Shown here: one piece after another, positions 29,084 to 51,200 of the stretch
Numbering within the stretch: position 1 is the first letter of the stretch
Layout: each line of letters begins with the position of its first letter
Source of the DNA: a virus
Lineage: Duplodnaviria; Caudoviricetes
Strand: one strand, 5' to 3'
Length of the DNA: 57,552 bases
IMG/VR virus record: IMGVR_UViG_3300025276_000005
Location: 1 to 57,552 of that record
Translations under genes and position numbers: made by a program
Notes under the pieces: model-generated
The model's database searches: none
Told to the model about the DNA's origin: nothing
The model's input: only the letters and a program-made list of their open reading frames with translations

Positions 29084-29740
29084 CTAGTATCCTGTTAAAA
29101 GTTTTAGTACGTCATCTATTGCTTTGTGTCTGTGGTTATCCTCTAGGATTACCTTAAACACGTGATTGCTATCCTTAATCTTGTGAACGTCATCAATCGC
29201 AGAGTTTAGCGATGAGGACAAGTCAATCTGTTGGTTATCTCCACAAAAAATCATCATCGAGTTTTTACCTAGTCTACCCAACGCCATACGTAATTGAGGC
29301 TTGGTTAAGTTTTGAAACTCATCTATTATAACAACAGCGTTGTCAAAAGTTCGTCCACGGAAGTGAGCTAGGGATACCAACTCAATCTCCTCGTTCTCAA
29401 CCATCTTCTGAATCTTCTCAGGCTTGTTGTACACCTTACGCATATTGGACATAATAGGAATAAGCCAAGGCTCTAGCTTCTCCTTCTCATCTCCGGGCAG
29501 GAAACCATTGTCCTCCGTAGCGACAGTAGGACGAGTAATAATTACCCTGTCGTACTCTCGCTTGAAGAACATATCGAGAGCCACCTGTACGGCTAAAAGA
29601 GTCTTACCTGAGCCTGCTTTGCCGACTATAAAACTGAAGGCGTGGTTTAGTATGTTCTCCTTTGCTCTTTTTTGCTCGTCTGATAAAGTTATATTAAACT
29701 TTACCTCTCCCCTAGGTGTCCTCTTTTCCTTATTAGCCAT
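29084..29740 (-). CDS. phoH: PhoH-like ATPase
   Basis: GKAGSGKT, ITRP, GFLPG, RGRTFDNAVVIIDEFQN, GDNQQIDL. Confidence 0.92.
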   Translation of the reverse strand: MANKEKRTPRGEVKFNITLSDEQKRAKENILNHAFSFIVGKAGSGKTLLAVQVALDMFFKREYDRVIITRPTVATEDNGFLPGDEKEKLEPWLIPIMSNMRKVYNKPEKIQKMVENEEIELVSLAHFRGRTFDNAVVIIDEFQNLTKPQLRMALGRLGKNSMMIFCGDNQQIDLSSSLNSAIDDVHKIKDSNHVFKVILEDNHRHKAIDDVLKLLTGY

Positions 29741-29843: not shown

Positions 29844-31451
29844 TTACTTTGTCTCGTAGCTACGTGCCATCGTTACAATCGCATTAGTGCTAAGAAGCGT
29901 GACAGCTACTGACACAGCATTTTGAAGTGCGTTCTTTGTAACCTTCATCGGGTCAATAACACCCATTGACATCAGCTTACCTCTCTTATCATTCTTTACG
30001 TCATAACCAAAACCTCTTGGCGTGTCATCGCTATACAAGTCATCATACATCAAGCCTGCGTTTGATAGTATAGTTTTAATCGGCGAGAGTAAAGACTCTC
30101 TAAGTATGTTATAAGCAGTCTTCTTCTCATCAGACCAACTTTCACTTATCGTCATAAACCTCGCTATGTTCTCAAGCGCCAATCCACCACCGGGTAGTAT
30201 ACCCTCAAGTGTAGCTGAACGTACCGCACATACAGCGTCATCAACCCTGTCAAACAACTCCTTGTGCTCTAGGTCAGTATTTCCACCAACGTATATAACA
30301 CCAACACCACCGGTAAGTGATGCTACCCTTGATAGGATAAACTCACGCTCAGTCTTTGTGCTTGAAGCAGCGTGCGCTCCGTGCAATTGCTCAACTCTCT
30401 CGTCTATATCCTCTTGAGAAACAACGTCATCGTCCTTTAATATAATCGTTGAAGCACGACCAACTATAACCTTGTTAGCTTTACCCAAGTCACTTGGCAT
30501 TATTAAGCTCAAGTCATCGCCCGTCTTCTCACTAAAGTAAGTAGCCCCAACCGATAAAGCAATGTCGTTCATTAGCTCGTGCTGCTTGTAACCAAAGTTA
30601 GGCGGCTGTATACAACATATCTTCAAGCCGTTCTTCATCACGTTTGCCGATAAGGTGTTAATCACGTTTGTCGAGCAAGGCGCAATAATCAATAGCTTAC
30701 CACCCTCTTGGATGATTGGCTTCAATACATTCTCAATCTGTAGTATGTTAGTTATCTCAGCGTCACTAACTAAAACACTAGCACCGTCAAAGATACACTC
30801 GTCCTTCTTGTGGTTGTTAATAAACAAGTTAGATGAGTATCCTCTGTCTACCTTAATACCCATTGTAGTCTCAAAGTGTGTGTCGGATGTTTGTGAACGC
30901 TCAACTGTAACGATACCATTAACGCCAACCTCTTTATACACGTTAGCTATTATGTTACCAATACTTGAGTCGTTGTTCGCTGATATAGTAGCTACACTTA
31001 CTAGAGTTTTATCTGTAACAGGTTTGCTCATCTTCTTAAGACTCTTAACAACCTCGTCAGTACCCTTTACAAGCTCTCTAAGGACCGCTGTCTTATTATG
31101 CTTATCAGTAATCATCTCGTCTCCATTTCGTACTAAGGCGTTAGATAACACGATAGCCGTTGTCGTACCATCACCGGCAGACAATGCAGTCTTCTCCGCT
31201 GCCTCTTTTACAATTCTGACTGCAAGATTCTCCACAGGGTCAAGCAAGCTAATAGATTTAGCCACCGTGACTCCATCCTTAGTAACCGTCATTCCCGATA
31301 AATGTTCTTCTGATTCGATAAGCACTGTATGACCTTGAGGACCAAGGGTGCTCTTTACTGCATTTGTAATCTTCTCTAGACCTTTGAATAATTTTACTCT
31401 ACCTTCTTGAGAGAAATGCAATTCTTTAGGAGTGTAACCTGATTGATTCAT
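29844..31451 (-). CDS. groEL: Chaperonin GroEL (phage type, no GGM tail)
   Basis: STLGPQG, VTKDGVTVAKSI, AGDGTTTA, ATISAN, EGILPGGG, GVIDPMKV. Confidence 0.95.
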   Translation of the reverse strand: MNQSGYTPKELHFSQEGRVKLFKGLEKITNAVKSTLGPQGHTVLIESEEHLSGMTVTKDGVTVAKSISLLDPVENLAVRIVKEAAEKTALSAGDGTTTAIVLSNALVRNGDEMITDKHNKTAVLRELVKGTDEVVKSLKKMSKPVTDKTLVSVATISANNDSSIGNIIANVYKEVGVNGIVTVERSQTSDTHFETTMGIKVDRGYSSNLFINNHKKDECIFDGASVLVSDAEITNILQIENVLKPIIQEGGKLLIIAPCSTNVINTLSANVMKNGLKICCIQPPNFGYKQHELMNDIALSVGATYFSEKTGDDLSLIMPSDLGKANKVIVGRASTIILKDDDVVSQEDIDERVEQLHGAHAASSTKTEREFILSRVASLTGGVGVIYVGGNTDLEHKELFDRVDDAVCAVRSATLEGILPGGGLALENIARFMTISESWSDEKKTAYNILRESLLSPIKTILSNAGLMYDDLYSDDTPRGFGYDVKNDKRGKLMSMGVIDPMKVTKNALQNAVSVAVTLLSTNAIVTMARSYETK

Positions 31452-31961: not shown

Positions 31962-32102
31962 TCACTTTGTTTTTATGTGTAAACTAATTAATCCTAAATA
32001 AATTATGTACTCAGTGTAGTCAAACTCCTCGTCTAAAGGGAATACAGAGAAACCTAAAACAAATCCTACACGTATTCTATTCTGTAATTCTATCTCGTAC
32101 AT
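31962..32102 (-). CDS. 46-aa hydrophobic protein (MYEIELQNRIRVGFVLGFSVFPLDEEFDYTEYIIYLGLISLHIKTK), absent from the ORF track
   Basis: Abuts the next ORF; first gene of the leftward arm. Confidence 0.55.
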   Translation of the reverse strand: MYEIELQNRIRVGFVLGFSVFPLDEEFDYTEYIIYLGLISLHIKTK

Positions 32103-32636
32103 TGGGTAAAGATACAAAAATTATTAGATACATAGAGGTGGGAGGTTATATGTCATGTGAGGCAGCTTAGCCCTCGACAGAAACCGATTTTTTTCTTGGG
32201 GGTGGGGGTTGCCTTTTCATATTTTCATATCTATTTTTTTGGCTATTTAGATACGTGCATGTACCACCCTTCAGTTGCGCGTACACATATACCTACCTAC
32301 ATTCATCTGCTCATCACATCTTAATTCATCTAGCAATCTACATAGGTATCTAGTTAGTGATTGTGTTCCACTATATACAATGTCCGCTCAAGCGGATAGC
32401 CTTAGCTAAGGCATATGCATTCATTTTAAGCGCTTCCAGGAAACGCTATTTTTGACATCCTAGCAAAACAAAGGCATACAGAGGTATGACGTTATAACTG
32501 CCCTACACAATTTACCCATAAATAATCCCTAAACCTATTCCTCCCGCAATCCCTTTGCTAGTCAGATATTGAGAGAGTGAATGTCTAAACGTCAAAATAA
32601 ACTTTACATTAATATGCAAATTAGTTATGAATTAGT

Positions 32637-32666
32637 TTTGTACTACGGATTAATCGTCTATCTTTG
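32637..32666 (+). promoter_or_regulatory. Main early promoter, Bacteroidota sigma-A type
   Basis: TTTG (32637-32640), 18-nt spacer, TATCTTTG (32659-32666), at the start of the plus-strand arm. Confidence 0.75.
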
Positions 32667-32825
32667 CTTCAGCAATGGGAAGTATTGCTCGTTCTTTTCT
32701 TACTAACTAACTGATTATCAGATGATTGTCCTCTAAAAGCCCCACGAGATGGGAAGGAAGACAAGAATATCCCTTTATTTCCTAGGGTTTCTGCTGATTA
32801 GGGTGAGAGACATAATGTGAGAGGA

Positions 32826-32886
32826 TATCGTAATGCAGCCAAGGTGGTCACAAGCCCACAACCAAAAAGGGATGCAGAGTGAGATA
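32826..32886 (+). ncRNA. Twister self-cleaving ribozyme (type P1), copy 1; predicted cut U32831/A32832
   Basis: P1 TATC/GATA; U^AA; P2 TGCA/TGCA; GC; P4 GTGG/CCAC enclosing loop TCACAAGC; GAGT. Both pseudoknots (AC/GT, GC/GC) can form. Confidence 0.88.
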
Positions 32887-32903
32887 ACAATTAAACCAAG
32901 ATT

Positions 32904-33032
32904 ATGAAAGAAAAAGATGAGTTTCCTGAAATGGAATTGTATGAACACTATTCTTTTTATGTAGAGAATTGTGTAGACGAAGATAAGGGAGAAATACCTT
33001 TAGGCTTTGACGAATGGAAAATAAACCAATAA
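32904..33032 (+). CDS. 42-aa acidic early peptide, absent from the ORF track
   Basis: MKEKDEFPEMELYEHYSFYVENCVDEDKGEIPLGFDEWKINQ, preceded by the recurring AAACCAAGATTATG start context. Confidence 0.55.
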   Translation: MKEKDEFPEMELYEHYSFYVENCVDEDKGEIPLGFDEWKINQ

Positions 33033-33053
33033 ACCAACTAAACAATAGAAATT

Positions 33054-33761
33054 ATGCCAAATCATTGCAGTAATCATTTAGAAGTAAGCGGAAGTGTAAA
33101 AGAAATGAAAAAGTTTTACGACCATTTATCATTTATCCCTGAGCAAGATCAAGAAAGTTACAATTTTGACTTTAACGACTTTATACCTATGCCTAAAAGC
33201 TTAGATATAATAGCAGGCTCTAGGGTTAATCGCGCTGTTGAAGTTTTAAACGGAGAAGCCAACATGGGTCCAGGAGGAGATTACCCTAACATTACACCTG
33301 AAGATATTGAGTTAGGTAAAACATACCTAAGCAATATGAAGAAGTACGGACATGGAGACTGGTACAGCTGGTCTAACGCTAACTGGGGAACCAAATGGAA
33401 CGCCTATGACGGTTATGCTAATTCAGTAGAAGACGACTATTTTGGAGTTGGCTTTTCTACGGCTTGGTCTCCACCAATGCCTTTATTAGCAAAAATCTGT
33501 GAGCTTTTTCCTAACCTAACTATACAAATGGAATACCAAGAAGAAGGTATGGGATTCGCTGGAGTCGCAGGATCTAATCCAGGAGAAGAGCCTTACGACA
33601 ACGAAGGTGAAATAGTTTACCTAAGTAGCTGTTGTAATAAAGATGTAAACGAAGAAGTTCACATGCAGGAGTGTGAGGACAGCGACTTAGAGAATTGGGA
33701 AATTTGCCCTAAGTGTAAAGAGGAATGCGAATCAATTAGTGAAGTAATTTATAACAACTAA
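33054..33761 (+). CDS. YubB/DUF1281-like ferredoxin-fold early protein with a Cys-rich C-terminus
   Basis: MPNHCSNHL, FNDFIPMP, WYSWSNANWGTKWNA, FSTAWSPP, YQEEGMGFAG. Confidence 0.75.
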   Translation: MPNHCSNHLEVSGSVKEMKKFYDHLSFIPEQDQESYNFDFNDFIPMPKSLDIIAGSRVNRAVEVLNGEANMGPGGDYPNITPEDIELGKTYLSNMKKYGHGDWYSWSNANWGTKWNAYDGYANSVEDDYFGVGFSTAWSPPMPLLAKICELFPNLTIQMEYQEEGMGFAGVAGSNPGEEPYDNEGEIVYLSSCCNKDVNEEVHMQECEDSDLENWEICPKCKEECESISEVIYNN

Positions 33762-33771
33762 AACCAAGATT

Positions 33772-34458
33772 ATGAACAAATTCAACGAATTATTAGCAGC
33801 AAAAAGTGGTGTAAACATCAAGAAAGTTAATACCATTAAGGGACAGATTAACAAGCTAGAGTCTAACAAGTTTGACAAGCAGATTGAGTTATCAAGAATC
33901 TGCTGCTCAGCGGAACAATGGTTTAAGTTAGCAGAAACCAAGCAACATATGAAAGATGCAGAGATTGAGATGACGATGGACAAGTTTGGAAATGATACGT
34001 TTGGATTCAAAAGAAGCCAATGGTCATTGTATAGACAAGTGGGTAACTTACTTACTGAGAAAGAAGAATTACTTGCAACATTCATCGCTGATAGAGAAGA
34101 AAAGGTAGCTAACAATGAAACCCCAAACAAATCATTAAAGGCCTTAAAGGATTGGATGATTAATGATGGTGTAGAGGAAGCAGAAGCAGAAGCAGAAGCA
34201 GAAGCAGAAGAGGAAGCAGAAGCAGAAGCAGAAGCAGAAGAAAAGACTAACTACATTGTTAGTTTTGCTATCAAAGGAGAGCATTTTGAAGATGGCAAAG
34301 GAGTTAGTATTAGAATAGCTGAAAGCGGAATTGTAGAGGGAGACATTGAAAAGATACCAAGTGGATTGAGAAAAGAGTTAGCGAAGTTATCATCTCAGAT
34401 AGCTTTAAAGCAACCAAATGCGATTGTGGAAACCAAAGGTAAGAGTGAATCAAAATAA
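33772..34458 (+). CDS. Early protein with an acidic (EA)n linker
   Basis: 228 aa; GAAGCA tandem repeats. Confidence 0.7.
   Translation: MNKFNELLAAKSGVNIKKVNTIKGQINKLESNKFDKQIELSRICCSAEQWFKLAETKQHMKDAEIEMTMDKFGNDTFGFKRSQWSLYRQVGNLLTEKEELLATFIADREEKVANNETPNKSLKALKDWMINDGVEEAEAEAEAEAEEEAEAEAEAEEKTNYIVSFAIKGEHFEDGKGVSIRIAESGIVEGDIEKIPSGLRKELAKLSSQIALKQPNAIVETKGKSESK
34174..34242 (+). repeat. In-frame hexamer tandem repeat (GAAGCA)n in two blocks
   Basis: Encodes EEAEAEAEAEAEEEAEAEAEAEE. Confidence 0.9.
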
Positions 34459-34464
34459 TCTAAG

Positions 34465-34492
34465 ATGGATGTCCGCTTAAGCGGATGTCCAT
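34465..34492 (+). repeat. Conserved hairpin family TCCGYT(N2)ARCGGA; other copies at 32381, 34827, 35641, 36533, 37579, 38688, 41344 and 48220
   Basis: ATGGATGTCCGCTTAAGCGGATGTCCAT. All copies lie in gaps between convincing genes. Confidence 0.9.
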
Positions 34493-34544
34493 TCCGTATA
34501 CAAGTGAGTGCTTGTACTGATGAGACTAAAAGGTTGAAACGGGA
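34492..34544 (+). ncRNA. Hammerhead self-cleaving ribozyme (type III); predicted cut after GUA at 34498
   Basis: Stem III TTCCGT/ACGGGA; stem I TACAAG/CTTGTA; core CTGATGA (34517-34523); stem II GAC/GTT; GAAA (34536-34539). Confidence 0.85.
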
Positions 34545-34566
34545 AATTAACTTAATACTGAGTGAT

Positions 34567-34818
34567 ATGGAAATTAAAAGAATTGTAGTAGTAATGGATG
34601 TTATTACTGAGGAAAAAACCACATTATATAATGCGTTATCTCTAGAGGATAATTTAATATCTACTATCATAACTTTAACAGAAGATAGCAGGAAAATAAT
34701 GGAATTTGCGTATAGGAATAAGGTATCAATAGACGCAAAGATTGAGAGTATACAATCAAAAAATGGTAGTATTAAAGCATATAGTCAAGCATTCGACATG
34801 ATTGCTTACGAAGGATAA
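34567..34818 (+). CDS. Early hypothetical protein (start re-called at ATG 34567)
   Basis: The longer ORF-track version would run through the hairpin and the hammerhead. Confidence 0.6.
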   Translation: MEIKRIVVVMDVITEEKTTLYNALSLEDNLISTIITLTEDSRKIMEFAYRNKVSIDAKIESIQSKNGSIKAYSQAFDMIAYEG

Positions 34819-34870
34819 AATTAACTAATGGATGTCCGCTTAAGCGGATGTCCATTTAAAACAAAGCATT

Positions 34871-35041
34871 ATGATTACGACAAAACACAGAATTACATAC
34901 GCTAGATGCATTGACTCGGGGATGAGCAGTGCGTTACAGATAGCTACCATCTTTAAGATGGTGTATGACATCACAGATGGTAAAGCATTAAAGCTAACGA
35001 TGGCTTGTGCTGATTACTACAATGAAACACTAACTAAATAA
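34871..35041 (+). CDS. 56-aa early protein, absent from the ORF track
   Basis: MITTKHRITYARCIDSG...; A-rich leader after the hairpin. Confidence 0.5.
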   Translation: MITTKHRITYARCIDSGMSSALQIATIFKMVYDITDGKALKLTMACADYYNETLTK

Positions 35042-35050
35042 GCAGAAATT

Positions 35051-35200
35051 ATGAGCAAATTTACTTTAACAATCATCACAATCTTAGCTACTACGCTAAC
35101 GATTATGGTGTACACAATGTCCAATTGCCTAGAGATTAAACTTCTAATTACGCTAATGGACTTACCGATTATTTTACTGATTGCAAACGAGTTAAACTAA
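35051..35200 (+). CDS. 49-aa hydrophobic (two-segment) early protein, absent from the ORF track
   Basis: MSKFTLTIITILATTLTIMVYTMSNCLEIKLLITLMDLPIILLIANELN. Confidence 0.5.
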   Translation: MSKFTLTIITILATTLTIMVYTMSNCLEIKLLITLMDLPIILLIANELN

Positions 35201-35205
35201 AAGTT

Positions 35206-35583
35206 ATGAAAAAGCGAGTAATTAACTTAGTAATAGATGCGTGTTATCTCATAGACAAAAAACGTGGTGTATTAAAGAATTACGAATATGAGACTGCGCC
35301 ATATTGTGGTCATCATAGGAGTGGAACAGATGGGGTTCTGTATAGTTCTTCTTACGCAGAAGGCGATGGTGGAGAGTCTGCCCATATAATTGGCTTTAGG
35401 TTTACTAAAAGCACAGATGATGAGTATTGGTGGAGTTTTAGATACAAGGTAGTGCGAGAGGTGTTTAACGATGGGTTATTTATAGCAGAGTCAAAATACA
35501 CCACATTCTTAAATGAGTTAAAGGCAGTATTCTTTTACCACAAACACGGATTCAGCCTTAGGTACAGAATAAAAACAAAATAA
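35206..35583 (+). CDS. Early hypothetical protein
   Basis: 125-aa ORF. Confidence 0.6.
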   Translation: MKKRVINLVIDACYLIDKKRGVLKNYEYETAPYCGHHRSGTDGVLYSSSYAEGDGGESAHIIGFRFTKSTDDEYWWSFRYKVVREVFNDGLFIAESKYTTFLNELKAVFFYHKHGFSLRYRIKTK

Positions 35584-35616
35584 ATTAGGTTATGTCTAAT
35601 TTATAATGTATATTTG
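35582..35616 (+). promoter_or_regulatory. Operator/promoter unit 1
   Basis: AAATTAG-N7-CTAATTT, 6 nt, then TATATTTG. Confidence 0.75.
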
Positions 35617-35684
35617 ACTAATTAATAACTAATAACCTATTAGATGTCCGCTTAAGCGGATGTCTGATAATTAAAACCAAGAAG

Positions 35685-36026
35685 ATGAACACGATTTTAG
35701 AAAGAAAAGTGCAATTTAGTGATGATGTAGAAGACACAATGTACACGTCTGATATAATGAGTTACTACAAGATAGACGCAGACACTCAGTTTATAAAGGA
35801 CTTTGATAATTGGATGAAAGAAGGTGGAGGAATAAACAGAGCCACATATAACCTAATTATAAGCAAGAGGGATATAGGCTTGTTTTGTTTAGGAATGAAG
35901 CCAAACGCACAATGGAGACTGAAAGACCTTAAGGCTTACTTTGGAATAAAAGGCAATAAGGAAAAGTGCAAAGAGTTGATAGAGGTATTAACAGAATTAT
36001 TTATACCACAGAGCAATGAAGGGTAA
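35685..36026 (+). CDS. Early hypothetical protein
   Basis: 113-aa ORF following the promoter and hairpin. Confidence 0.65.
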   Translation: MNTILERKVQFSDDVEDTMYTSDIMSYYKIDADTQFIKDFDNWMKEGGGINRATYNLIISKRDIGLFCLGMKPNAQWRLKDLKAYFGIKGNKEKCKELIEVLTELFIPQSNEG

Positions 36027-36156
36027 GGCGATAGTAATAGATGGTCACTTAGTTAAGCTAGATAAAGAGGGTAACTTCTTTAGGCTTAACGGAAGTGGTG
36101 TATGGGTGCAGATAAGTAATCAAGAACTTTTTAAAATTATAAGCGATGAAGTATAA
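36016..36156 (+). CDS. 46-aa early protein, absent from the ORF track
   Basis: MKGKAIVIDGHLVKLDKEGNFFRLNGSGVWVQI...; overlaps each neighbour by 11 nt. Confidence 0.5.
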   Translation: MKGKAIVIDGHLVKLDKEGNFFRLNGSGVWVQISNQELFKIISDEV

Positions 36157-36457
36157 AGGATGGACAAACAGAGCGACTTGGTTATTCAATGTTTACTATG
36201 GAGACAAAATAAATAACGAGGACGACTTCAACAGAGAAAAAAACCAATGCGAAGAAGATCACGAGAACCTAGTGAACACTATAGGCACTTGTATATGGTC
36301 TGATATGATTGATATTAGAGAGATAAACTTTGTCGAGTTATTTGAGACGATGAGTTCAGATTGGGATGAGTTTAAATGCGAGATGTGTGAAGAGTCAATG
36401 ACTGAGGAAGACCATCACTTTTGTGATATATGTGGAGATTGCCGGGATGGGGAATAA
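36146..36457 (+). CDS. Early acidic protein with a C-terminal Cys cluster
   Basis: YKGWTNRATW N-terminus; CEMC...CDICGDC. Confidence 0.65.
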   Translation: MKYKGWTNRATWLFNVYYGDKINNEDDFNREKNQCEEDHENLVNTIGTCIWSDMIDIREINFVELFETMSSDWDEFKCEMCEESMTEEDHHFCDICGDCRDGE

Positions 36458-36470
36458 AATAAGTTAAAAT

Positions 36471-36505
36471 AAATTAGGTCATGTCTAATTCATAACTTAT
36501 ATTTG
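36471..36505 (+). promoter_or_regulatory. Operator/promoter unit 2
   Basis: AAATTAG-N7-CTAATTC, 6 nt, then TATATTTG. Confidence 0.75.
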
Positions 36506-36566
36506 CCTAATCAATAACTAATTAACTAACAATGTCCGTTCAAGCGGACTTATTAAAACCAAGATT

Positions 36567-36767
36567 ATGGCGCAGAAGACAATAAAGAAAGGTGAGGGCT
36601 ACGAGGTAGTCGCTCACTACACCAACAATGAGTTTGGACTTGAGGTCACATCAGTTGACTACGAGTGTAGTGTAACTAATTGTGTGGTTCCTATAGATAC
36701 CTTCCTATACGATTTCCTAAGTGTAGGAGCAATTAACGAAATGGAAGACAAACTAAAACAAGACTAA
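36567..36767 (+). CDS. Early hypothetical protein
   Basis: 66 aa; AAAACCAAGATTATG start context. Confidence 0.6.
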   Translation: MAQKTIKKGEGYEVVAHYTNNEFGLEVTSVDYECSVTNCVVPIDTFLYDFLSVGAINEMEDKLKQD

Positions 36768-36771
36768 GATT

Positions 36772-36939
36772 ATGGGACAGATGAAAGAATTATTTATCTC
36801 AATGCAAGAAGGACTTATGCAAGGGATAACAATCACAAACGCTCAGCGTGAGCGTGACTTACAAGAGGAAGAGCAAGGAGAGTCGGGCAAGGTAGGAATT
36901 ATTAACACACCTAAAGACAATAGCGATGAAGAACAATAA
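36772..36939 (+). CDS. 55-aa early protein, absent from the ORF track
   Basis: MGQMKELFISMQEG...; fills the gap between two ORFs. Confidence 0.5.
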   Translation: MGQMKELFISMQEGLMQGITITNAQRERDLQEEEQGESGKVGIINTPKDNSDEEQ

Positions 36940-37210
36940 ACTTATAGCAGAATTTATGGGGTTGAAAGAGCATAAAGGCTCATACTACATACCACTTTAT
37001 AATAGTGGGGATTGGGTTCCCGATGTTGAGTTAGATTATCACACCTCTTGGGATTGGCTTATGCCTGTGGTAATGAAAATATCAGGCAAACTAAATAAAC
37101 CTCTTGATGAGATTATTTCACTCCTTACGGAGGTTAATAGCGATAATATATGGGATATTAAGTCTTTGTATAGTGCAGTAGTAGAATTTATTAAAAACCA
37201 AACCAACTAG
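36926..37210 (+). CDS. Early hypothetical protein
   Basis: NNKLIAEFMG...YHTSWDWLMPVV...YSAVVEFIK, a pattern I recall from Bacteroidota phages. Confidence 0.65.
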   Translation: MKNNKLIAEFMGLKEHKGSYYIPLYNSGDWVPDVELDYHTSWDWLMPVVMKISGKLNKPLDEIISLLTEVNSDNIWDIKSLYSAVVEFIKNQTN

Positions 37211-37215
37211 AAATT

Positions 37216-37572
37216 ATGAGTAAAGAAAGAAGTTTTACAAAGGATGACGTAGTTAATGCTATGGTAACAGAGTTACGAAAAAAGTCAATATTCGTAACCT
37301 ACAAAGGTAGAAAAATGCTACCTCAAATATCTCACCACATCCCAAAGAGTATGATTAAATCAGACAACCCAATATACCTTAGATGCTACAAGAGGCTTTG
37401 GAAAGAAAGCAGAAAGATAGATAACCCAATAGAGGTTAAAGAGCCTAAAGTTAGTCCATCTGTTATTCAAAGAGAGCGTATCGTTAAATCTTCTAGCAAG
37501 GTGGTTATAAACATGAAGGATAGAGTCATTACAATAGAGGATGGCAAAGACATCAACATAAGTTATAGATAA
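37216..37572 (+). CDS. Early basic hypothetical protein
   Basis: 118-aa ORF. Confidence 0.6.
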   Translation: MSKERSFTKDDVVNAMVTELRKKSIFVTYKGRKMLPQISHHIPKSMIKSDNPIYLRCYKRLWKESRKIDNPIEVKEPKVSPSVIQRERIVKSSSKVVINMKDRVITIEDGKDINISYR

Positions 37573-37601
37573 AACAACAGAGTCCGTTCGAACGGACTCT
37601 T

Positions 37602-37665
37602 TCTTTAATGTCACTAAGGTGGTCACAAGTCCATCAATCTAAGAGTTAGAGAGACAGAGTGGAGA
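37602..37665 (+). ncRNA. Twister self-cleaving ribozyme (type P1), copy 2; predicted cut U37606/A37607
   Basis: P1 TCTT/GAGA; U^AA; P2 TGTC/GACA; AC; P4 GGTGG/CCATC enclosing loop TCACAAGT; P5 TCTAA/TTAGA; GAGT. Compensatory changes relative to copy 1. Confidence 0.9.
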
Positions 37666-37692
37666 TAATTAAAAAACAAAACAACTAAAATT

Positions 37693-38025
37693 ATGGGATA
37701 CAGAAGCGAAGTTTACATAGCAATACCAAAGGCAGATGAGTTAGAATTAGATGCTATATTAATAGAGCACCATTTATTTGGTGGAGATTACTTTACTAAA
37801 ACTAATTATTTAGGGTACGTAACCTATCATTGCCCACATCTTAAATGGCATAGTCACTATAATGATGTAAGAGCAGTAAATGATTTTATATCAGAAATCC
37901 CTCTAGATAATTTCCCAAAAGAAGGTAGATGCTTGGTGTGTGTTGGAGAGGATGATAGGATACACTCAGATATAGGAGAATATCAAGAGGTATTCAATAT
38001 ATATACTAAAGTAGAACTACAATAG
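37693..38025 (+). CDS. Early hypothetical protein
   Basis: MGYRSEVYIAI...LKW...VGED. Confidence 0.65.
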   Translation: MGYRSEVYIAIPKADELELDAILIEHHLFGGDYFTKTNYLGYVTYHCPHLKWHSHYNDVRAVNDFISEIPLDNFPKEGRCLVCVGEDDRIHSDIGEYQEVFNIYTKVELQ

Positions 38026-38148
38026 AAAACGAGAGTACCAAGCGTGAGTTGGGCATATAGTAAAAAGTCCTAACAGGGGTGTTAGGCAAAAGTCAGTGTC
38101 GGAAGGGGGCTTTCCTCCCCTTTCCTTCATAACTAAAACAAGACTAAG

Positions 38149-38304
38149 ATGGACTTACGAGATATTACGATAAAGATAGAGGCATACGCCAACCAAAGAG
38201 TAATAGAGGAGTTGGAGGAGTTACTAAGAAGAGCTGAAGGTAGTGGTAGAAATATAACTAATGTTGAATTATCTTTAATAATCAAATATCTAAAACAAGA
38301 CTAA
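38149..38304 (+). CDS. 51-aa early protein, absent from the ORF track
   Basis: MDLRDITIKIEAYANQRVIEELEELL...; AAAACAAGACTAAGATG start context. Confidence 0.5.
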   Translation: MDLRDITIKIEAYANQRVIEELEELLRRAEGSGRNITNVELSLIIKYLKQD

Positions 38305-38305
38305 G

Positions 38306-38524
38306 ATGCCTGCAGCAAGACAAGAGTATGTAAAAAGTAAATATCAAGGAGTATCAGGGGTTATGACTAAAGGCGTAGTTAAATGGCGTGTAAACATCGC
38401 AGGAGTAGGACGTGCTAATTTAGCTTCTGAAAGAGAATGTGCTATTGCAGTAGATAAAATTAAAATAAGTCAAGGTAAAGAACCCGTTAATATACTAAAG
38501 AGAGTTAAAATAATTAGTCTATGA
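38306..38524 (+). CDS. AP2-like DNA-binding protein
   Basis: SKYQGV...KWRVNI...SERECAIAVD resembles the AP2 domain pattern. Confidence 0.6.
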   Translation: MPAARQEYVKSKYQGVSGVMTKGVVKWRVNIAGVGRANLASERECAIAVDKIKISQGKEPVNILKRVKIISL

Positions 38525-38545
38525 CTAATTTATAACTTATATTTA
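38511..38545 (+). promoter_or_regulatory. Operator/promoter unit 3
   Basis: AATTAGTC-TAT-GACTAATT followed at the same spacing by TATATTTA (one mismatch to the -7 box). Confidence 0.6.
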
Positions 38546-38556
38546 CATAATTATTA

Positions 38557-38682
38557 GTGGTCAACTTGGTTTCTCCGATGTCTTGGGGACTGAAGGATTG
38601 TCTGCTTATGGTTAATAGTCGTGACCACGTGGGTGTTTTTAATGCTTCACCTATTCATAACGACAAAGACAGTCAAAGACAT
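38557..38682 (+). ncRNA. Unassigned structured RNA (long interrupted hairpin with a possible pseudoknot)
   Basis: Nested stems ATGTCTT/AAGACAT, GACTG/CAGTC, TTGTC/GACAA, TTATG/CATAA, GTGGGTG/CACCTAT, plus GTGGTCA/TGACCAC. Confidence 0.55.
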
Positions 38683-38729
38683 TAATTGGATGTCCGCTTA
38701 GGCGGACATCTACTTTAAACTAAAAACAT

Positions 38730-39086
38730 ATGACAAGTAGATTAAAAGAAAGTATAGTAAACGATATTCGGGCAGAGAAACTTTGCTCTACTCCGGATAA
38801 ACACCACATACAGAGGTGTCAGAAAATACTAGATAACCTAGAGAGTCTAACTTACGAGCAGTTTATTAATACCGGACACATAATGCCTAAGAGGCATATT
38901 ATAGATAGGTATCCTCATAGAAAGCTGAAGGAAAATACCAAGACAGTTTGTAGGTATGTAGGTGGTTTCTGTATTGAATTTATAGGAAAGGATGACTTTT
39001 TTTGGGGCTACCATAAAGACAAAGACTTTAAGCACGTTGAGATGACGTTGTATAACCACGTAAAGAACACAATAGATGAGCGATAA
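38730..39086 (+). CDS. Hypothetical protein
   Basis: 118-aa ORF. Confidence 0.6.
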   Translation: MTSRLKESIVNDIRAEKLCSTPDKHHIQRCQKILDNLESLTYEQFINTGHIMPKRHIIDRYPHRKLKENTKTVCRYVGGFCIEFIGKDDFFWGYHKDKDFKHVEMTLYNHVKNTIDER

Positions 39087-39360
39087 ATCGAGAGAGTATC
39101 AGATTAAAAAGTACACTAACAAGATACAAGAGATGTTAATTAGTAAAAACAAAGCGTATGGGAGTTCTGCTCTTGAGCCTCTGAATGTATTCAGTAAGGG
39201 TAGACCTTCCGACTCTTTGTGTGCAAGGATAGACGATAAGTTAGCAAGGATAAAGAACGTAGGTATATCAGACAAGACAGAGGATACAGTCTTCGACTTG
39301 ATAGGTTACCTTATATTATTAATGATTTCACTAGAAGACGATGAAGAAAGCAATATTTAA
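39076..39360 (+). CDS. DUF1599/nucleotide-modification-associated (all-alpha NTP-PPase-like) protein
   Basis: KNKAYGSS...RIDDKLARI...EDTVFDLIGYLIL. Confidence 0.65.
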   Translation: MSDKSREYQIKKYTNKIQEMLISKNKAYGSSALEPLNVFSKGRPSDSLCARIDDKLARIKNVGISDKTEDTVFDLIGYLILLMISLEDDEESNI

Positions 39361-39640
39361 TCAGTATGCGGATGAGATATCAAGATTATTCTCAATAGAC
39401 CAAAAAGAAATATTCAGTAAAGGTAAACGAAGAGATTTAGTTAGTGCTAGGCACATACTATTTTACCTTTGCTACAACAGACCAATGCGAGGTACTGAGA
39501 TTCAATACTATATGGGGTTGCGTGGGTATAAAATAAACCACTCCTCAATTATGTACGGTATAAGGTCTGTCAACGAACTTATTACAAACGATAAAGACTA
39601 CGCATCTGTTGTTAAAAAAGTATCGATATGCGTGGACTAG
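39341..39640 (+). CDS. DnaA domain IV-like HTH protein
   Basis: KRRDLVSARHILFYL...EI...NHSSIMYGIRSV. Confidence 0.7.
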   Translation: MKKAIFNQYADEISRLFSIDQKEIFSKGKRRDLVSARHILFYLCYNRPMRGTEIQYYMGLRGYKINHSSIMYGIRSVNELITNDKDYASVVKKVSICVD

Positions 39641-40047
39641 AATCAGTATTTGAAGAAGCCAAGCTAGACGAATACTCAGGAGTTTTAGATAGTAGGGGAG
39701 TTGAGGCTAGAATTGTACTTGCGATAAAGATTACACGAGACAGAGAAAGTGGTGATGTTGAGATACTTAACACCTCTAAAGGAGGGGATTACTACAAAGA
39801 AATATCTAAAGATGAGTACGAATTATTCATCAAAAAAGGTTGGAGATATGGAGTTTATGTCTTATATTTGTCTAATTGCCGACTAAAACTTAACTCAATT
39901 GAGATTAGAATTAACGAGCATATACAAGAGAGCATCAATACTACGTTAGAGATGTTGCAGACAAGGAGAAAAGTAATACTAAACAATTACGCAAAAGTTA
40001 AAAATAAATTAAATCAAATCAACAATGAACAAGAACACTTACAGTAA
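39628..40047 (+). CDS. Hypothetical protein
   Basis: 139-aa ORF overlapping its neighbours. Confidence 0.6.
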   Translation: MRGLESVFEEAKLDEYSGVLDSRGVEARIVLAIKITRDRESGDVEILNTSKGGDYYKEISKDEYELFIKKGWRYGVYVLYLSNCRLKLNSIEIRINEHIQESINTTLEMLQTRRKVILNNYAKVKNKLNQINNEQEHLQ

Positions 40048-48219: not shown

Positions 48220-48251
48220 GAGAGTCCGTGTGAACGGACTCTCTTTTTTTT
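48220..48251 (+). terminator. Terminator between the two converging arms
   Basis: GAGAGTCCGT-GTGA-ACGGACTCTC followed by T8. Confidence 0.85.
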
Positions 48252-51200
48252 ATCTACCACTAAATTTTCCTTTGTTTCTTATACCTCTCTTAGTAGACTT
48301 ACTTTTTTTCTTCTTCTTCTTGTAATTATATAGAGCGTCCTTTTCAGCTTGCTTAGCTTTTCGTTCTATAGCCTTAGCTTTTTTCTCAGCAACTCTATCT
48401 AAGTATCCTTCAGATTCAGGACCGAATGTCTTACGCCATAGTGCTTTGTCATAACGCTTCATATCAGTCTCACTATTATACTGACCTAGCTTATCTTTCT
48501 TTATCTGAGTTTCTGATGTACCTTTAGGTCTATAAGATGAGCTTACACCAAGTACATCATACATATTTTCCTCACTAAAATCTCCTTGGAAAGCATTCGC
48601 AAGTCCAATAAACGGGTCGAACTGAACACCTAAACCAATCTCGGTTAGAGTTCTTACAGCACTACCTATTGCTTTAGATTCACCATTTTCCTTATCTTCC
48701 TTTGATAGCTTAGCTAGTTTAGTAAACTTTCGAGACACAGAACTAAACGGATTTACTACGCTATCTATTGGTCTACTACTGTTACCTCTCATCTTATTGA
48801 CTGCTTCCTCAGCAGATGCACCGAAGTAAGGAATCTGATATATAAGATTAAGACCCATCATTGCATCTTTCATCTTATCTAAAGCCTCCTCTCTATCCTC
48901 ATCCTCGCCCTTAATAAACTTAGCTATGTTAGCCGCAAGTGCGAACATAACATTTGCGACTCCAAGGTTTAATACAAGACCTCTAACACTTTTAGCTGAG
49001 GGTTTCTCGCCCTGACTTACCGACCTAAGTATGTTAGTGGTAGACTGCATCACCTTGTTCATCTGTAAAAAAACAGTACTACCGAACATAGTAAAACCAC
49101 GAACTAAGGAGTTGCTATCCATTTGTAGAGGTATCTTATCTGTACTTCTTCTTGATTGCTGAGTAGTGTTATAGTCCTCAAACTTTGCAACAGCATCAGC
49201 TTCACTCATACCATTAGCAATATCTCTATTGAAGTTAATCATATACCCCATAACACCAAGTACATCACCAAGAACAGTTGGGCTACCTGCAGCAGCTTTT
49301 AACATCCTAAAGGCTTTACTTTTCTGAGATTGAGACGCAGGTTTATATGTTACTGAGCCTGTCTCAAGACCATACACATCACCCTCTAGTCCTTTAAGTA
49401 GACGCTCTTGAAACATAGGTGATAAATTCCAAGCCTTTTTTATTTGTGAAGGCATAGTCGCTATAACTTTAGCTCCATCAACCATAAACATTAATAAGTC
49501 AAGCCCCGGTACTTTTGACTTACCCTTACCTCTGTACGAGTAATCTTCAAAAGCATTTACAAAAGAAGTGGACTGCTTAAGAATCTGAACAGCCTTGAAT
49601 GCTAGAGCAAAACCTGTGTACTTAGTCATTAACTTATCAACAAGGTTTGACTGAATAGCAGCCTTACCACCGTTAGGATTAACAGCGTAGTTGATTGCAT
49701 TCTTTACAGCCTTACCAAGACCTGTCTCAGTCAATAAGGTATTAACAGATTTGAACTTAAATATAGCATTCATCTTCTTAACCCCCTTAGCGTAACCCTT
49801 ATACCTCTCGATAGTTTCAAAGTGGTCTTGAAGAGTAGAGGTAAAATCTGAACCTCTAAGGTCTACATCACCCGTTAAATCAACCCTTTCTTTTAAGGCA
49901 GGAGCAGTCTGTGCATTAAACACACCACTAAAATCACCGTTCTCTAATAGGTCAGCGTTAACTTTAGTCTGAATAGTTTGAGTTGGAAAGTAATTATCAA
50001 CATACCCTAGGTTTACGTTGTTGACATCAGAATAAACCTCATTAGTATTCTCGAAGTACTCGGTACTTAAATACTCTACTGTCTTATCTACAAACTCAAC
50101 AACCTCTTTACCTAAGATAGATTCAATCTCTTTCAGCTTTGAATCAGTAAGACCCTGAGCGAGTAGCTTATCACGTTGAACCTTATTCTTACTAAGAGCG
50201 TAGAGTCTCATAAGTTGGTCTGCATTGAAAGAATCGCTAGATAACACACCGCCCTTAGAAGTTTTTAATCCTGTAATCTTATGAACTCCTGTGGCAAGTT
50301 TTTTCTTAATGTCCTTGTAGCTATCTATACCGTCAATGGTTTTAGCTATCTCATCCATCTTAGTACGAGTATTCTGAAGACCTTTAGTATATACACTCTC
50401 CATCTTATTAAGAGCGTTGTACACGTTTTCTGTAAAGAAAGAACCAACCTTATCAAGACCATTAGTAAGAGTACCTAGGTGCTTTAAGTTATTACCTATA
50501 GCTTGAAGCATTTTACCTACGTTGGTGTAGCTAAACTCCTTAGCGTATTTATTTATAGCCTCACCTAACCCCTTACCAAATAACTCAATACGTCTATCAT
50601 CTCTGTCAGAGTCTAGTTGATTTTTATCCTTAGGTTTACCGTCTTCAAAAAGCTCTGAGTAACCATCCTCAATGTCCTTATCAGCTTGATTCTTAGTCTC
50701 TTTAACCTCAGCTCTGAACGCATCAAGTTTTTTCTTAAGCTCCATACGACCACCTTCTTGACCTCGTTTAATATCTTCAAGTAGTTGTTCAACCTGCTCA
50801 AGACTCATATCTCTGAGCCCATCTACAGACTCGAATATCTCTGAGGCATATAGCTGAGACTTTTCTTTGTTGGTTAACTCTGAAAATTCTTTTTGCAGTA
50901 TGGTATCAATATCAGGGAATAAGGATTTCTTTATATCATCAGCATCAATCTTTACAGGCTTACCATCTATCGTTGCAAGGACTTTATTAAGTACAGCCTC
51001 CATAACCTCAAAGAACTGCTGACTATCAGCATCTACAGATTTAGTTTTCTTTGCAGACTTAGATACTCTTTTACGAATTTCAGATATTAAAGTCTTCTTA
51101 TATTTATCTTCAGACTTATTGTATACGTTAGCCATATAATCCATAAAGCTATCTATAGACACCTCGTTTAGAACATCTACCTTCGCAAACCTATTTAATA

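What the first reader, a model, noticed from the sequence alone, without database searches (positions are those of the whole stretch)
37602..37665. Twister ribozyme 2 covaries with copy 1
Relative to copy 1, P2 changes from TGCA/TGCA to TGTC/GACA, the pseudoknot pair changes from GC..GC to AC..GT, P4 changes from GTGG/CCAC to GGTGG/CCATC, and a clear P5 (TCTAA/TTAGA) appears. UAA, TCACAAG and GAGTG are invariant. Covariation within one genome argues for selection on the fold rather than a neutral repeat.
Basis: partly seen in the sequence, partly recalled or inferred. Interest (0 to 1): 0.85.

Follow-up and report, generated by a model that had tools for sequence, protein, structure and literature searches.

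The report
Second twister ribozyme in marine phage
The stretch is a genuine-looking second copy of the known twister self-cutting RNA in an uncultured marine phage. It forms one unit with an upstream hairpin, and related phages carry that unit in front of different genes.

Summary
Window 37602-37665 (+) and 32827-32885 (+) both match Rfam twister-P1 (RF03160). Both score below its gathering score of 67.2 bits: 28.3 and 36.3 bits, with genome-wide E-values of 1.4e-5 and 6.8e-8.

Copy 2 keeps UAA, the L4 and L1 cores, a 4-bp P2, P4, and both pseudoknots. Its departures from the consensus are complementary: T1 is CAC/GUG and T2 is AC/GU. The covariance model does not score either pseudoknot.

Eleven of 14 related metagenome loci carry an orthologue. 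All 32 proposed pairs are kept in 6 distinct versions. There are two compensatory changes, one in P5 and one in the upstream hairpin.

The hairpin at 37579-37600 sits where twister's known optional P0 lies. Hairpin, twister and A-rich leader form a discrete block of about 96 nt. Related strains carry this block before different genes, and one strain lacks it.

The most likely role is self-cleavage at U37606/A37607, which would cut the early polycistronic mRNA between cistrons.

Twisters near phage genes are already in print, and this scan has noted phage twisters on much other DNA. This is therefore a new member of a known kind. Cleavage itself is untested.

The parts
37579..37600 (+). Perfect 9-bp hairpin AGAGUCCGU-UCGA-ACGGACUCU, 1 nt before P1. 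It occupies the position of twister's optional P0/L0 and is one member of the window's TCCG..CGGA hairpin family. It is predicted to cap the 3' end of the upstream cleavage product.
   Evidence: Flagged as terminator-like on both strands. Conserved together with the twister in 11 related loci. C-G to U-A compensatory change at one pair. P0/L0 is described in section 32 of the CHiTA preprint. Hairpin family shown.
37602..37665 (+). Twister ribozyme copy 2, type P1, with no P3 and with P5. Predicted cut between U37606 and A37607. Parts: P1 37602-05/37662-65; P2 37609-12/37653-56; T2 37613-14/37629-30; P4 37618-22/37631-35; T1 37624-26/37659-61; P5 37638-42/37646-50.
   Evidence: Rfam RF03160 28.3 bits. 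R1 27.0 bits, E 6.4e-6. Pair counts. The minimum-free-energy fold reproduces P1, P2, P4 and P5.
37666..37692 (+). A-rich, Shine-Dalgarno-less leader between the twister and ATG 37693. Its first 9-11 letters (UAAUUAAAA) belong to the conserved block and are shared with other gene leaders in the window.
   Evidence: The 11-letter overlap at joint 37663->35666 is.
37693..38025 (+). 110-aa gene immediately downstream of copy 2. It has relatives in other viral contigs, where no twister precedes it.
37216..37572 (+). 118-aa gene whose mRNA 3' end would be defined by the hairpin and the cut.
   Evidence: Homologous DNA lies upstream of the module in L139 and L140.
32827..32885 (+). Twister ribozyme copy 1, type P1, with no P3 and a 2-bp vestige of P5. 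Predicted cut between U32831 and A32832. It lies in the leader of the + strand small-gene block, 18 nt before ATG 32904.
   Evidence: Rfam RF03160 36.3 bits, E 2.9e-4 on the whole window and 6.8e-8 on the genome. R1 46.4 bits, E 3.1e-12.

Best explanation
The window is a complete 57.5-kb uncultured marine phage. Its terminase relatives infect Flavobacteriaceae.

Positions 37602-37665 encode a type-P1 twister self-cleaving ribozyme that lacks P3 and carries P5. It forms one unit with the hairpin at 37579-37600, which sits in the P0 position. A second twister lies at 32827-32885. Both are sense-oriented in the block of small + strand genes.

Shown:
- family-level match to twister;
- all defining stems and both pseudoknots present;
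- pair-preserving variation among orthologues;
- hairpin, twister and leader behave as one discrete block across strains.

Inferred:
- The transcript cuts itself between U37606 and A37607, and for copy 1 between U32831 and A32832.
- The upstream mRNA would end in the hairpin plus UUUCUUU with a 2',3'-cyclic phosphate.
- The downstream mRNA would begin with a 5'-OH, the compact ribozyme fold, and a 27-nt A-rich leader before ATG 37693.
- Neighbouring cistrons would thus be uncoupled in stability and translation.

Whether the cut stabilises or destabilises the downstream message is unknown.
For: - Rfam twister-P1 is the best clan member for both sites: 36.3 and 28.3 bits, genome E 6.8e-8 and 1.4e-5.
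- R1 was built from 7 viral twisters without the window copies. It finds exactly these two sites (46.4 and 27.0 bits). The next hit scores 15.4 bits and lacks P4/L4.
- T1 (CAC/GUG) and T2 (AC/GU) depart from the consensus in complementary fashion. No model used here scores either pseudoknot.
- On 31 viral twister hits, 94.6% of cells pair and 13 of 17 pairs show double changes. 0 of 500 shuffles reach this, and slid controls pair 21-44%.
- 11 of 14 related metagenome loci hold an orthologue. In 6 distinct versions, 32 of 32 pairs are 100% paired. There are 2 compensatory and 3 wobble-preserving changes, and the only unpaired variable letter is in the P5 loop.
- G-U pairs in P1, P4 and T2 make the fold specific to the + strand.
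- blastn homology to relatives covers only window 37579(70)-37674, flanked by different genes. One strain has the same downstream gene with no module.
- Both copies end 18 and 27 nt before start codons.
- In print: the defining features of twister (PMC5408937, passages read). 94% of natural twisters tested cleaved, stems tolerate imperfections, and all P5-bearing twisters had f_cleaved above 0.80 (bioRxiv 10.1101/2024.07.11.603121, abstract and sections 31-32 read). Processing of polycistronic transcripts and a phage link have been suggested (PMC6765202, passages read).
Against: - Both copies are far below Rfam's gathering score of 67.2 bits. Copy 2 was missed in the whole-window E-value scan.
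- The minimum free energy of copy 2 alone is no better than shuffles: z = -0.27, and 73 of 200 shuffles fold as well. Copy 1 gives z = -0.11.
- Copy 2 departs from consensus letters outside the pseudoknots. The third letter of GCC is U, and the UAAA junction reads GAGA.
- P1 has only 4 pairs, one of them U-G.
- P0-bearing twisters cleaved less in vitro, mean 0.40 against 0.85.
- No cleavage or RNA evidence exists.
- The nearest phages lack twisters. None was found in 13 viral loci around homologues of the flanking genes. None was found in two deposited relatives. The element is therefore dispensable.
- R1's seed sequences were picked with a 14-letter pattern taken from the window. Its score for those 14 letters is not independent.
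- The orthologue set is shallow: 6 distinct rows, and 5 of 500 shuffles reach the covariation score.
Confidence: 0.7

Rival explanations
1. The sequence descends from a twister but no longer cleaves, or cleaves negligibly. Together with the conserved hairpin it would serve another RNA role, such as a protein-binding site, a terminator/antiterminator element, or a 5'-end stabiliser.
For: - The score is well below the gathering score.
- There are consensus departures at the GCC third letter and the UAAA junction.
- P0 goes with lower cleavage in vitro.
- The hairpin belongs to a family of 10 matches with a conserved TCCG..CGGA sequence, most of them not followed by a ribozyme. That suggests a sequence-specific binder.
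Against: - All letters in L1 and L4 are kept, or changed only in complementary pairs.
- Both pseudoknots are preserved in the window and in relatives. An inactive relic would not be expected to keep them.
- 94% of natural candidates tested in the CHiTA preprint were active (abstract read).
Confidence: 0.13
2. The block is kept mainly at the DNA level. It would be a short conserved linker at which related phages recombine to swap gene cassettes, and any RNA activity would be incidental.
For: - Homology to relatives starts and stops at the block edges.
- Contigs of 3 runs join 37663 to 35666 with 11 shared letters. One run skips 32893-33760 with 16 shared letters.
- The same block precedes three different downstream genes.
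Against: - A DNA linker needs no RNA fold. Yet every paired variable position keeps pairing, including G-U pairs that are mismatches on the other strand.
- The recombination joints map to the shared A-rich leader, which other genes have without any twister.
- This rival is not exclusive of the best explanation.
Confidence: 0.08
3. The two ribozymes act together. Cutting at both sites would release the 4.8-kb RNA 32832-37606 with 5'-OH and 2',3'-cyclic phosphate ends. A host RtcB-type ligase could join these ends into a circle.
For: - Two or more twisters lie within 0.6-4.8 kb on one strand in the window and in 7 other viral loci: L018, L036, L039, L059, L071, L074 and L104.
- The end chemistry of twister products fits RtcB substrates. 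This point is recalled knowledge with no call behind it.
Against: - Nothing in any call shows a joined RNA.
- Relatives carry copy 2 without any copy-1-like element within up to 6 kb upstream (L146).
- No RNA run holds the stretch.
Confidence: 0.04
4. The resemblance is chance, or a neutral repeat without function.
For: The thermodynamic z-scores are not significant.
Against: - The E-values are 1e-5 to 1e-12.
- The motif expectation is 0.01.
- The block is conserved in 11 loci from several metagenomes with pair-preserving changes only.
Confidence: 0.02

Closest known systems
Twister self-cleaving ribozyme, type P1 (Rfam RF03160). Consensus as reviewed in PMC5408937.
   Same: - The order P1-UAA-P2-L2-P4/L4-P2'-L1-P1'.
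- A 4-bp P2.
- A 3-bp T1 between L4 and L1.
- A 2-bp T2 between L2 and L4.
- Optional P0 and P5 present, optional P3 absent. P3 is absent in about 20% of known twisters.
   Different: - It scores 28-36 bits against a gathering score of 67.2.
- The middle pair of T1 is A-U, not C-G.
- In copy 2, T2 is A-U/C-G where the consensus has the conserved GC.
- The third letter of GCC is U.
- The junction before P2' reads GA after P5.
Twister and hammerhead ribozymes associated with phage genes and with each other (Weinberg et al. 2015, as cited in PMC4604425 and PMC6765202).
   Same: - Sense-oriented, intergenic position among small phage genes.
- More than one ribozyme within a few kb.
- Polycistronic processing as the proposed role.
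   Different: - Here the host group is probably Flavobacteriaceae.
- The unit with its hairpin can be followed as a block across strains.
- I could not read the two primary papers, because PMC3867598 and PMC4509812 are not held. Overlap with their data sets is therefore unknown.
Synthetic ribozyme insulators such as RiboJ (recalled, no call behind it).
   Same: A self-cleaving ribozyme placed just upstream of a gene's leader removes upstream RNA context.
   Different: RiboJ is an engineered hammerhead with a downstream hairpin. This element is natural, is a twister, and has its hairpin upstream.
Rho-independent terminator.
   Same: The hairpin at 37579-37600 followed by UUUCUUU matches the terminator scan.
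   Different: - The U-tract is at the same time the P1 5' strand and the cleavage site.
- Other members of the hairpin family lack a U-tract.

Membership tests
Twister ribozyme (type P1) | [quoted passage not shown] | tested here: met
   The covariance-model alignments place all three stems. The minimum-free-energy fold reproduces them. They are 100% paired in 6 distinct orthologous versions.
Twister ribozyme (type P1) | Scissile N-A step (usually U-A) in the junction between P1 and P2, with a highly conserved A | tested here: met
   UAA at 37606-08 and at 32831-33 aligns to the consensus UAA. It is invariant in all 12 rows of A4.
Twister ribozyme (type P1) | Pseudoknot T1: three Watson-Crick pairs between L4 and L1 | tested here: met
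   CAC 37624-26 pairs with GUG 37659-61. In A3 the three pairs are 100% paired. One other locus has C-G at the middle pair.
Twister ribozyme (type P1) | Pseudoknot T2: a dinucleotide in L2 (conserved GC) pairs with two L4 letters | tested here: met
   AC 37613-14 pairs with GU 37629-30. Relatives have GC with GU, a G-U wobble. In A3 the pair is G-C 20, A-U 4, G-U 2, none unpaired. The letter G is not conserved, but the pair is.
Twister ribozyme (type P1) | At least ten strongly conserved letters in L1 and L4 | tested here: inconclusive
   GGUC-CAAG-CC and GAG-G match the Rfam consensus capitals. The departures are the paired T1 and T2 letters, the GCC third letter, and 2 of 4 letters of UAAA. 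I did not see the published per-position conservation table.
Twister ribozyme (type P1) | Rfam RF03160 gathering score of 67.2 bits | tested here: not met
   The scores are 28.3 bits (copy 2) and 36.3 bits (copy 1). The model expects P3, which both copies lack, and it penalises the covarying pseudoknot letters.
Twister ribozyme (type P1) | Site-specific self-cleavage giving 2',3'-cyclic phosphate and 5'-OH ends | not testable with these tools
Twister optional stem P0/L0 | Stem-loop immediately upstream of the 5' end of the ribozyme, with or without a linker (CHiTA preprint, section 32) | tested here: met
   The hairpin at 37579-37600 ends 1 nt before P1. It is conserved with the ribozyme and shows one compensatory change.

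The most novel reading that the evidence does not exclude
Hairpin (P0), twister and A-rich leader together form a self-contained, portable intercistronic punctuation cassette of about 96 nt. Its P0 hairpin exists to cap the 3' end that self-cleavage creates. The ribozyme fold and leader give the next gene a context-free 5' end. The cassette spreads among phage genes by recombination at shared leaders and hairpins. If general, this would explain why twisters and hammerheads cluster near phage genes, and what P0 is for.
Probability: 0.3. Interest if true: 0.6.

Novelty: new member of a known kind. Interest (0 to 1): 0.35.

Why it matters
Standard annotation would miss both ribozymes, because there is no Rfam hit at the gathering score. 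A mechanical ORF on the opposite strand (37360-37626) overlaps copy 2.

The biological role of bacterial and phage twisters is still open (PMC6765202). This phage offers a compact natural test case:
- two twisters, and a possible hammerhead, in one block of small genes;
- one twister fused to a conserved hairpin;
- natural strains that carry the block before different genes, or lack it.

Comparing expression between such strains, or between cleavage-dead mutants, could show what the cut does. The gain is modest, because the family, its optional stems and its phage association are already known.

Tried and rejected
- Rfam at gathering score over the window gave 0 hits.
- The whole-window E-value scan found copy 1 only. 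Copy 2 appeared only on a 151-nt stretch.
- blastn (distant mode) of 32001-40000 against deposited phages gave no match.
- I looked for syntenic orthologues through flanking genes in viral contigs. Six loci (63% aa identity to ORF 33054-33761) and 10 loci (29-53% to ORF 37693-38025) were found. R1 with default filters on all 16 gave 0 hits. R1 with filters off on 13 of the 16 (L121-L133) gave nothing above 12.1 bits. Rfam at E<=1 on 5 of the 16 gave 0 hits.
- Reading L127 and L129 shows a short leader without a twister.
- R1 on the two deposited relatives MW202828.1 and MT497068.1 gave 0 hits. The tool warns that an empty answer shows little.
- Exact 21-letter scans of viral contigs for each copy gave 0 hits.
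- No RNA holder was listed for 32500-38100. The four runs laid were DNA contigs, so they say nothing about RNA ends.
- Thermodynamic z-scores for the bare ribozymes are not significant.
- The Bacteroidota-type -7 motif TANNTTTG is not enriched: 80 matches against 65.9 expected, with 8 of 100 shuffles reaching 80. I place no promoter.
- The hammerhead candidate at 34497-34539 scores only 13.4 bits, E = 3 on 161 nt. I did not take it further.
- Papers PMC3867598 (Roth 2014) and PMC4509812 (Weinberg 2015) are not held. What I say of them comes from passages in PMC6765202, PMC5408937 and PMC4604425. Their supplements might already list these or similar phage twisters, and I could not see them.
- The CHiTA preprint has no occurrence of phage, viral or metagenom.
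- I ran no literature search for a twister-plus-hairpin block as a recombination module, so I make no claim that it is not in print.
- Calls with format errors, corrected and resent: 4 (gap too wide), 11 (8001 bases), 38 and 81 (terms under 3 characters).

Full report
**What the window is.**
The window is a complete IMG/VR virus record of 57,552 bp with direct terminal repeats. It has no tRNA genes and 33-40% G+C. It encodes a large terminase, a portal protein, a primase/helicase, a Sak-like annealing protein, a GroEL and a PhoH.

Its terminase is 75% identical to that of an uncultured podovirus record. It is 45% identical to those of Flavobacterium, Cellulophaga and Tenacibaculum phages. The host is therefore probably a marine member of the Flavobacteriaceae. 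This is an inference.

Near-identical DNA is held by 20 runs from 9 studies of marine water, sediment, sponge and invertebrate metagenomes. One of those studies holds the sample that may be the source of this DNA.

**The observation.**
Rfam has no hit at gathering score anywhere in the window. With E-value reporting, twister-P1 (RF03160) matches in two places:
- 32827-32885 (+): 36.3 bits.
- 37602-37665 (+): 28.3 bits, seen when a short stretch was searched.

On the whole genome the E-values are 6.8e-8 and 1.4e-5. The gathering score is 67.2 bits. Both copies lack the optional P3 that the model expects.

The shared motif GGTCACAAG-N5-35-GAGTG occurs twice, against 0.01 expected.

**An independent model.**
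Most are chance matches. A descriptor requiring UAA and a complementary 4-bp P2 picked out 26 stretches in the viral loci besides the two window copies, two of them duplicates. At least three of the 26 (L021, L072, L105) looked like chance matches and were left out of the alignments.

I built model R1 from seven of these that lack P3, and I left the window copies out. With filters off, R1 scores copy 1 at 46.4 bits (E 3.1e-12) and copy 2 at 27.0 bits (E 6.4e-6). The next hit scores 15.4 bits and lacks P4/L4. There are therefore two twisters in this genome and no third.

One caveat applies. The seeds were chosen by a 14-letter pattern from the window, so only the remaining positions are independent.

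**Fit to the family definition.**
The review PMC5408937 (passages read) gives these features:
- P1, P2 and P4 are essential.
- P0, P3 and P5 are optional. P3 is absent in about 20% of twisters.
- P2 has four pairs.
- The U-A cleavage step lies between P1 and P2.
- T1 is three Watson-Crick pairs between L4 and L1.
- T2 pairs the conserved GC of L2 with two L4 letters.

Copy 2 has all of these. Its departures from the consensus in the pseudoknots are complementary:
- The middle pair of T1 is A-U in both copies, against C-G in the consensus.
- T2 is A-U plus C-G in copy 2, against G-C plus C-G in copy 1.

The covariance models used here do not score pseudoknots. This agreement therefore counts as additional evidence.

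Compared with copy 1, copy 2 has two double changes in P2, one in T2, and a different P1. Copy 1 also has a 2-bp counterpart of P5, between the same AA...GA junction letters.

**Covariation across phage twisters.**
R1 found 31 hits in 22 viral loci plus the window. I counted the nested structure plus T1 and T2 on that alignment:

| Measure | Result |
|---|---|
| Cells paired | 94.6% (shuffles 76.9%; slid partners 21-44%) |
| Pairs with double changes | 13 of 17 |
| Shuffles reaching any measure | 0 of 500 |
| T2 pair | G-C 20, A-U 4, G-U 2, none unpaired |

The alignment is fitted to the nested stems, so those counts lean towards the structure. The pseudoknot counts do not.

T1 is fixed by the selecting pattern in most rows. 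However, the second copy in L104 reads CCC/GGG, and L074:3094 reads CGC with GCG.

**Orthologues of copy 2.**
Homologues of the flanking genes in viral contigs carry no twister. Contigs from four runs then showed joints from the 3' end of copy 2 (37663, 37674 and 37687) back to 35666-35961. That led me to ORF 35685-36026.

Its relatives in metagenome contigs gave 14 loci. Eleven hold a copy-2 orthologue at 24.7-28.1 bits. In ten of these it lies 17 nt before the homologue of ORF 35685. In L145 it lies before another small ORF. Only in the window does it precede ORF 37693.

blastn shows homology confined to window 37579 (or 37570) to 37674, at 88-95% identity. Different genes lie on either side. 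L149 has the same downstream gene at 96.8% identity, preceded by the bare leader and no module. In the window itself that gene is preceded by a hairpin only.

In the 104-column alignment (12 rows, 6 distinct), all 32 pairs of hairpin, P1, P2, T2, P4, T1 and P5 are paired in every row. The changes are:
- U-A to C-G at the closing pair of P5.
- C-G to U-A in the hairpin.
- A-U to G-U in T2.
- Two wobble changes in P1.
- One change in the P5 loop.

No core letter varies. With so few distinct rows the shuffle control is modest: 5 of 500 reach the score.

**The hairpin.**
The stem-loop at 37579-37600 ends one base before P1, and its U-tract is the P1 5' strand. The CHiTA preprint (section 32 read) describes an optional P0/L0 immediately upstream of the 5' end in about 10% of twisters. 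Those twisters cleaved less in vitro (0.40 against 0.85), while all P5-bearing twisters cleaved above 0.80.

Among the 31 viral hits, 13 have an upstream 36-nt window whose folding energy is in the lowest 5% of windows from the same locus. About 1.6 would be expected. Some of those rows are close relatives, so this count is rough.

The window's hairpin also belongs to a family, TCCGYTYRARCGGA, with 10 matches against 0.04 expected. Nine of the 10 lie between 32383 and 48238. Most members are not followed by a ribozyme.

**Mechanism.**
Shown:
- Both twisters are sense-oriented and intergenic.
- They end 18 and 27 nt before start codons.
- In other viral loci, twisters likewise sit between same-strand small ORFs. 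Roughly 11 of 25 lie 12-27 nt before the next mechanical ORF start (my count).

Inferred:
- Self-cleavage at U37606/A37607 leaves the upstream message ending in the hairpin plus UUUCUUU with a cyclic phosphate.
- The downstream message then begins with a 5'-OH, the folded ribozyme, and an A-rich leader without a Shine-Dalgarno sequence.

Processing of polycistronic transcripts has been suggested for bacterial twisters and hammerheads, and a phage role was thought likely (PMC6765202, passages read). Whether the cut stabilises or destabilises the downstream RNA cannot be decided here. The same review notes that glmS cleavage lowers expression.

**Evidence against the reading.**
- The scores are well under the gathering score.
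- Thermodynamic z-scores of the bare ribozymes are not significant (-0.27 and -0.11). With the hairpin included, z = -2.31.
- There are two consensus departures outside the pseudoknots.
- There is no RNA evidence.
- The element is absent from the nearest phages, so it is dispensable.

**Comparison and novelty.**
This is a twister of type P1 with P0 and P5 and without P3. The association of twisters with phage genes and with other ribozymes is in print (PMC4604425 and PMC6765202, passages read). This scan has noted phage twisters on much other DNA: 932 notes in at least 626 genomes. One of those notes reads them as gene-cassette joints.

What is specific here:
- A Flavobacteriaceae-type phage.
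- A variant that standard annotation misses.
- A clean natural series: block before gene A, block before gene B, hairpin only, or nothing.

I rate it a new member of a known kind, of moderate interest.

Noticed in passing
window 34466-34544 (+): A hairpin of the same family (34466-34489) is directly followed by a hammerhead-like sequence with CUGAUGA and GAAA cores and a GUA triplet. Rfam Hammerhead_3 gives only 13.4 bits, E = 3 on 161 nt. It lies inside the mechanical ORF 34465-34818. If real, it would be a second case of a hairpin followed by a ribozyme.
   Followed up: partly
window 12340, 32383, 34472, 34835, 35647, 36535, 37583, 38693, 45533, 48225: A family of hairpins matches TCCGYTYRARCGGA, with 10 matches against 0.04 expected. 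Nine of them lie between 32383 and 48238. Some contain G-U pairs that work only on the + strand RNA (35644-35665). The conserved sequence suggests a specific binding partner.
   Followed up: partly
window 32886-32906, 33750-33774, 35666-35687, 37664-37695: A-rich gene leaders of the type (G)ATAA..TTAAAACCAAGA(T/A)(T/G)ATG recur before several small genes. They coincide with strain-to-strain joints. One run skips 32893-33760 with 16 shared letters. Three runs join 37663 to 35666 with 11 shared letters.
   Followed up: partly
L018, L036, L039, L059, L071, L074, L104 (viral contigs): Seven other viral loci carry two twisters 0.6-3.1 kb apart on one strand. In L104 one copy has T1 CAC/GUG and the other CCC/GGG. 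L074:3094-3147 has CGC with GCG.
   Followed up: partly
L149:730-895: A strain with a 96.8% identical homologue of ORF 35685-36026 has neither hairpin nor twister before it. Only the bare leader is present, so the block is a presence/absence polymorphism.
   Followed up: yes
window 48250-56085 (-) and 3703-8352 (-): Giant ORFs of 2611 and 1549 aa have no Pfam match at E<=0.001.
   Followed up: no
window 29844-31451 (-) and 29084-29740 (-): The phage encodes a GroEL-type chaperonin (PHROG 5725, E 2.8e-130) and a PhoH-like protein (Pfam PF02562, E 2.1e-54), side by side next to the divergent region that precedes twister 1.
   Followed up: no
window 37360-37626 (-): A mechanical 88-aa GTG ORF on the opposite strand overlaps the hairpin and the 5' part of twister 2. 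A gene caller might report it and hide the RNA element.
   Followed up: no
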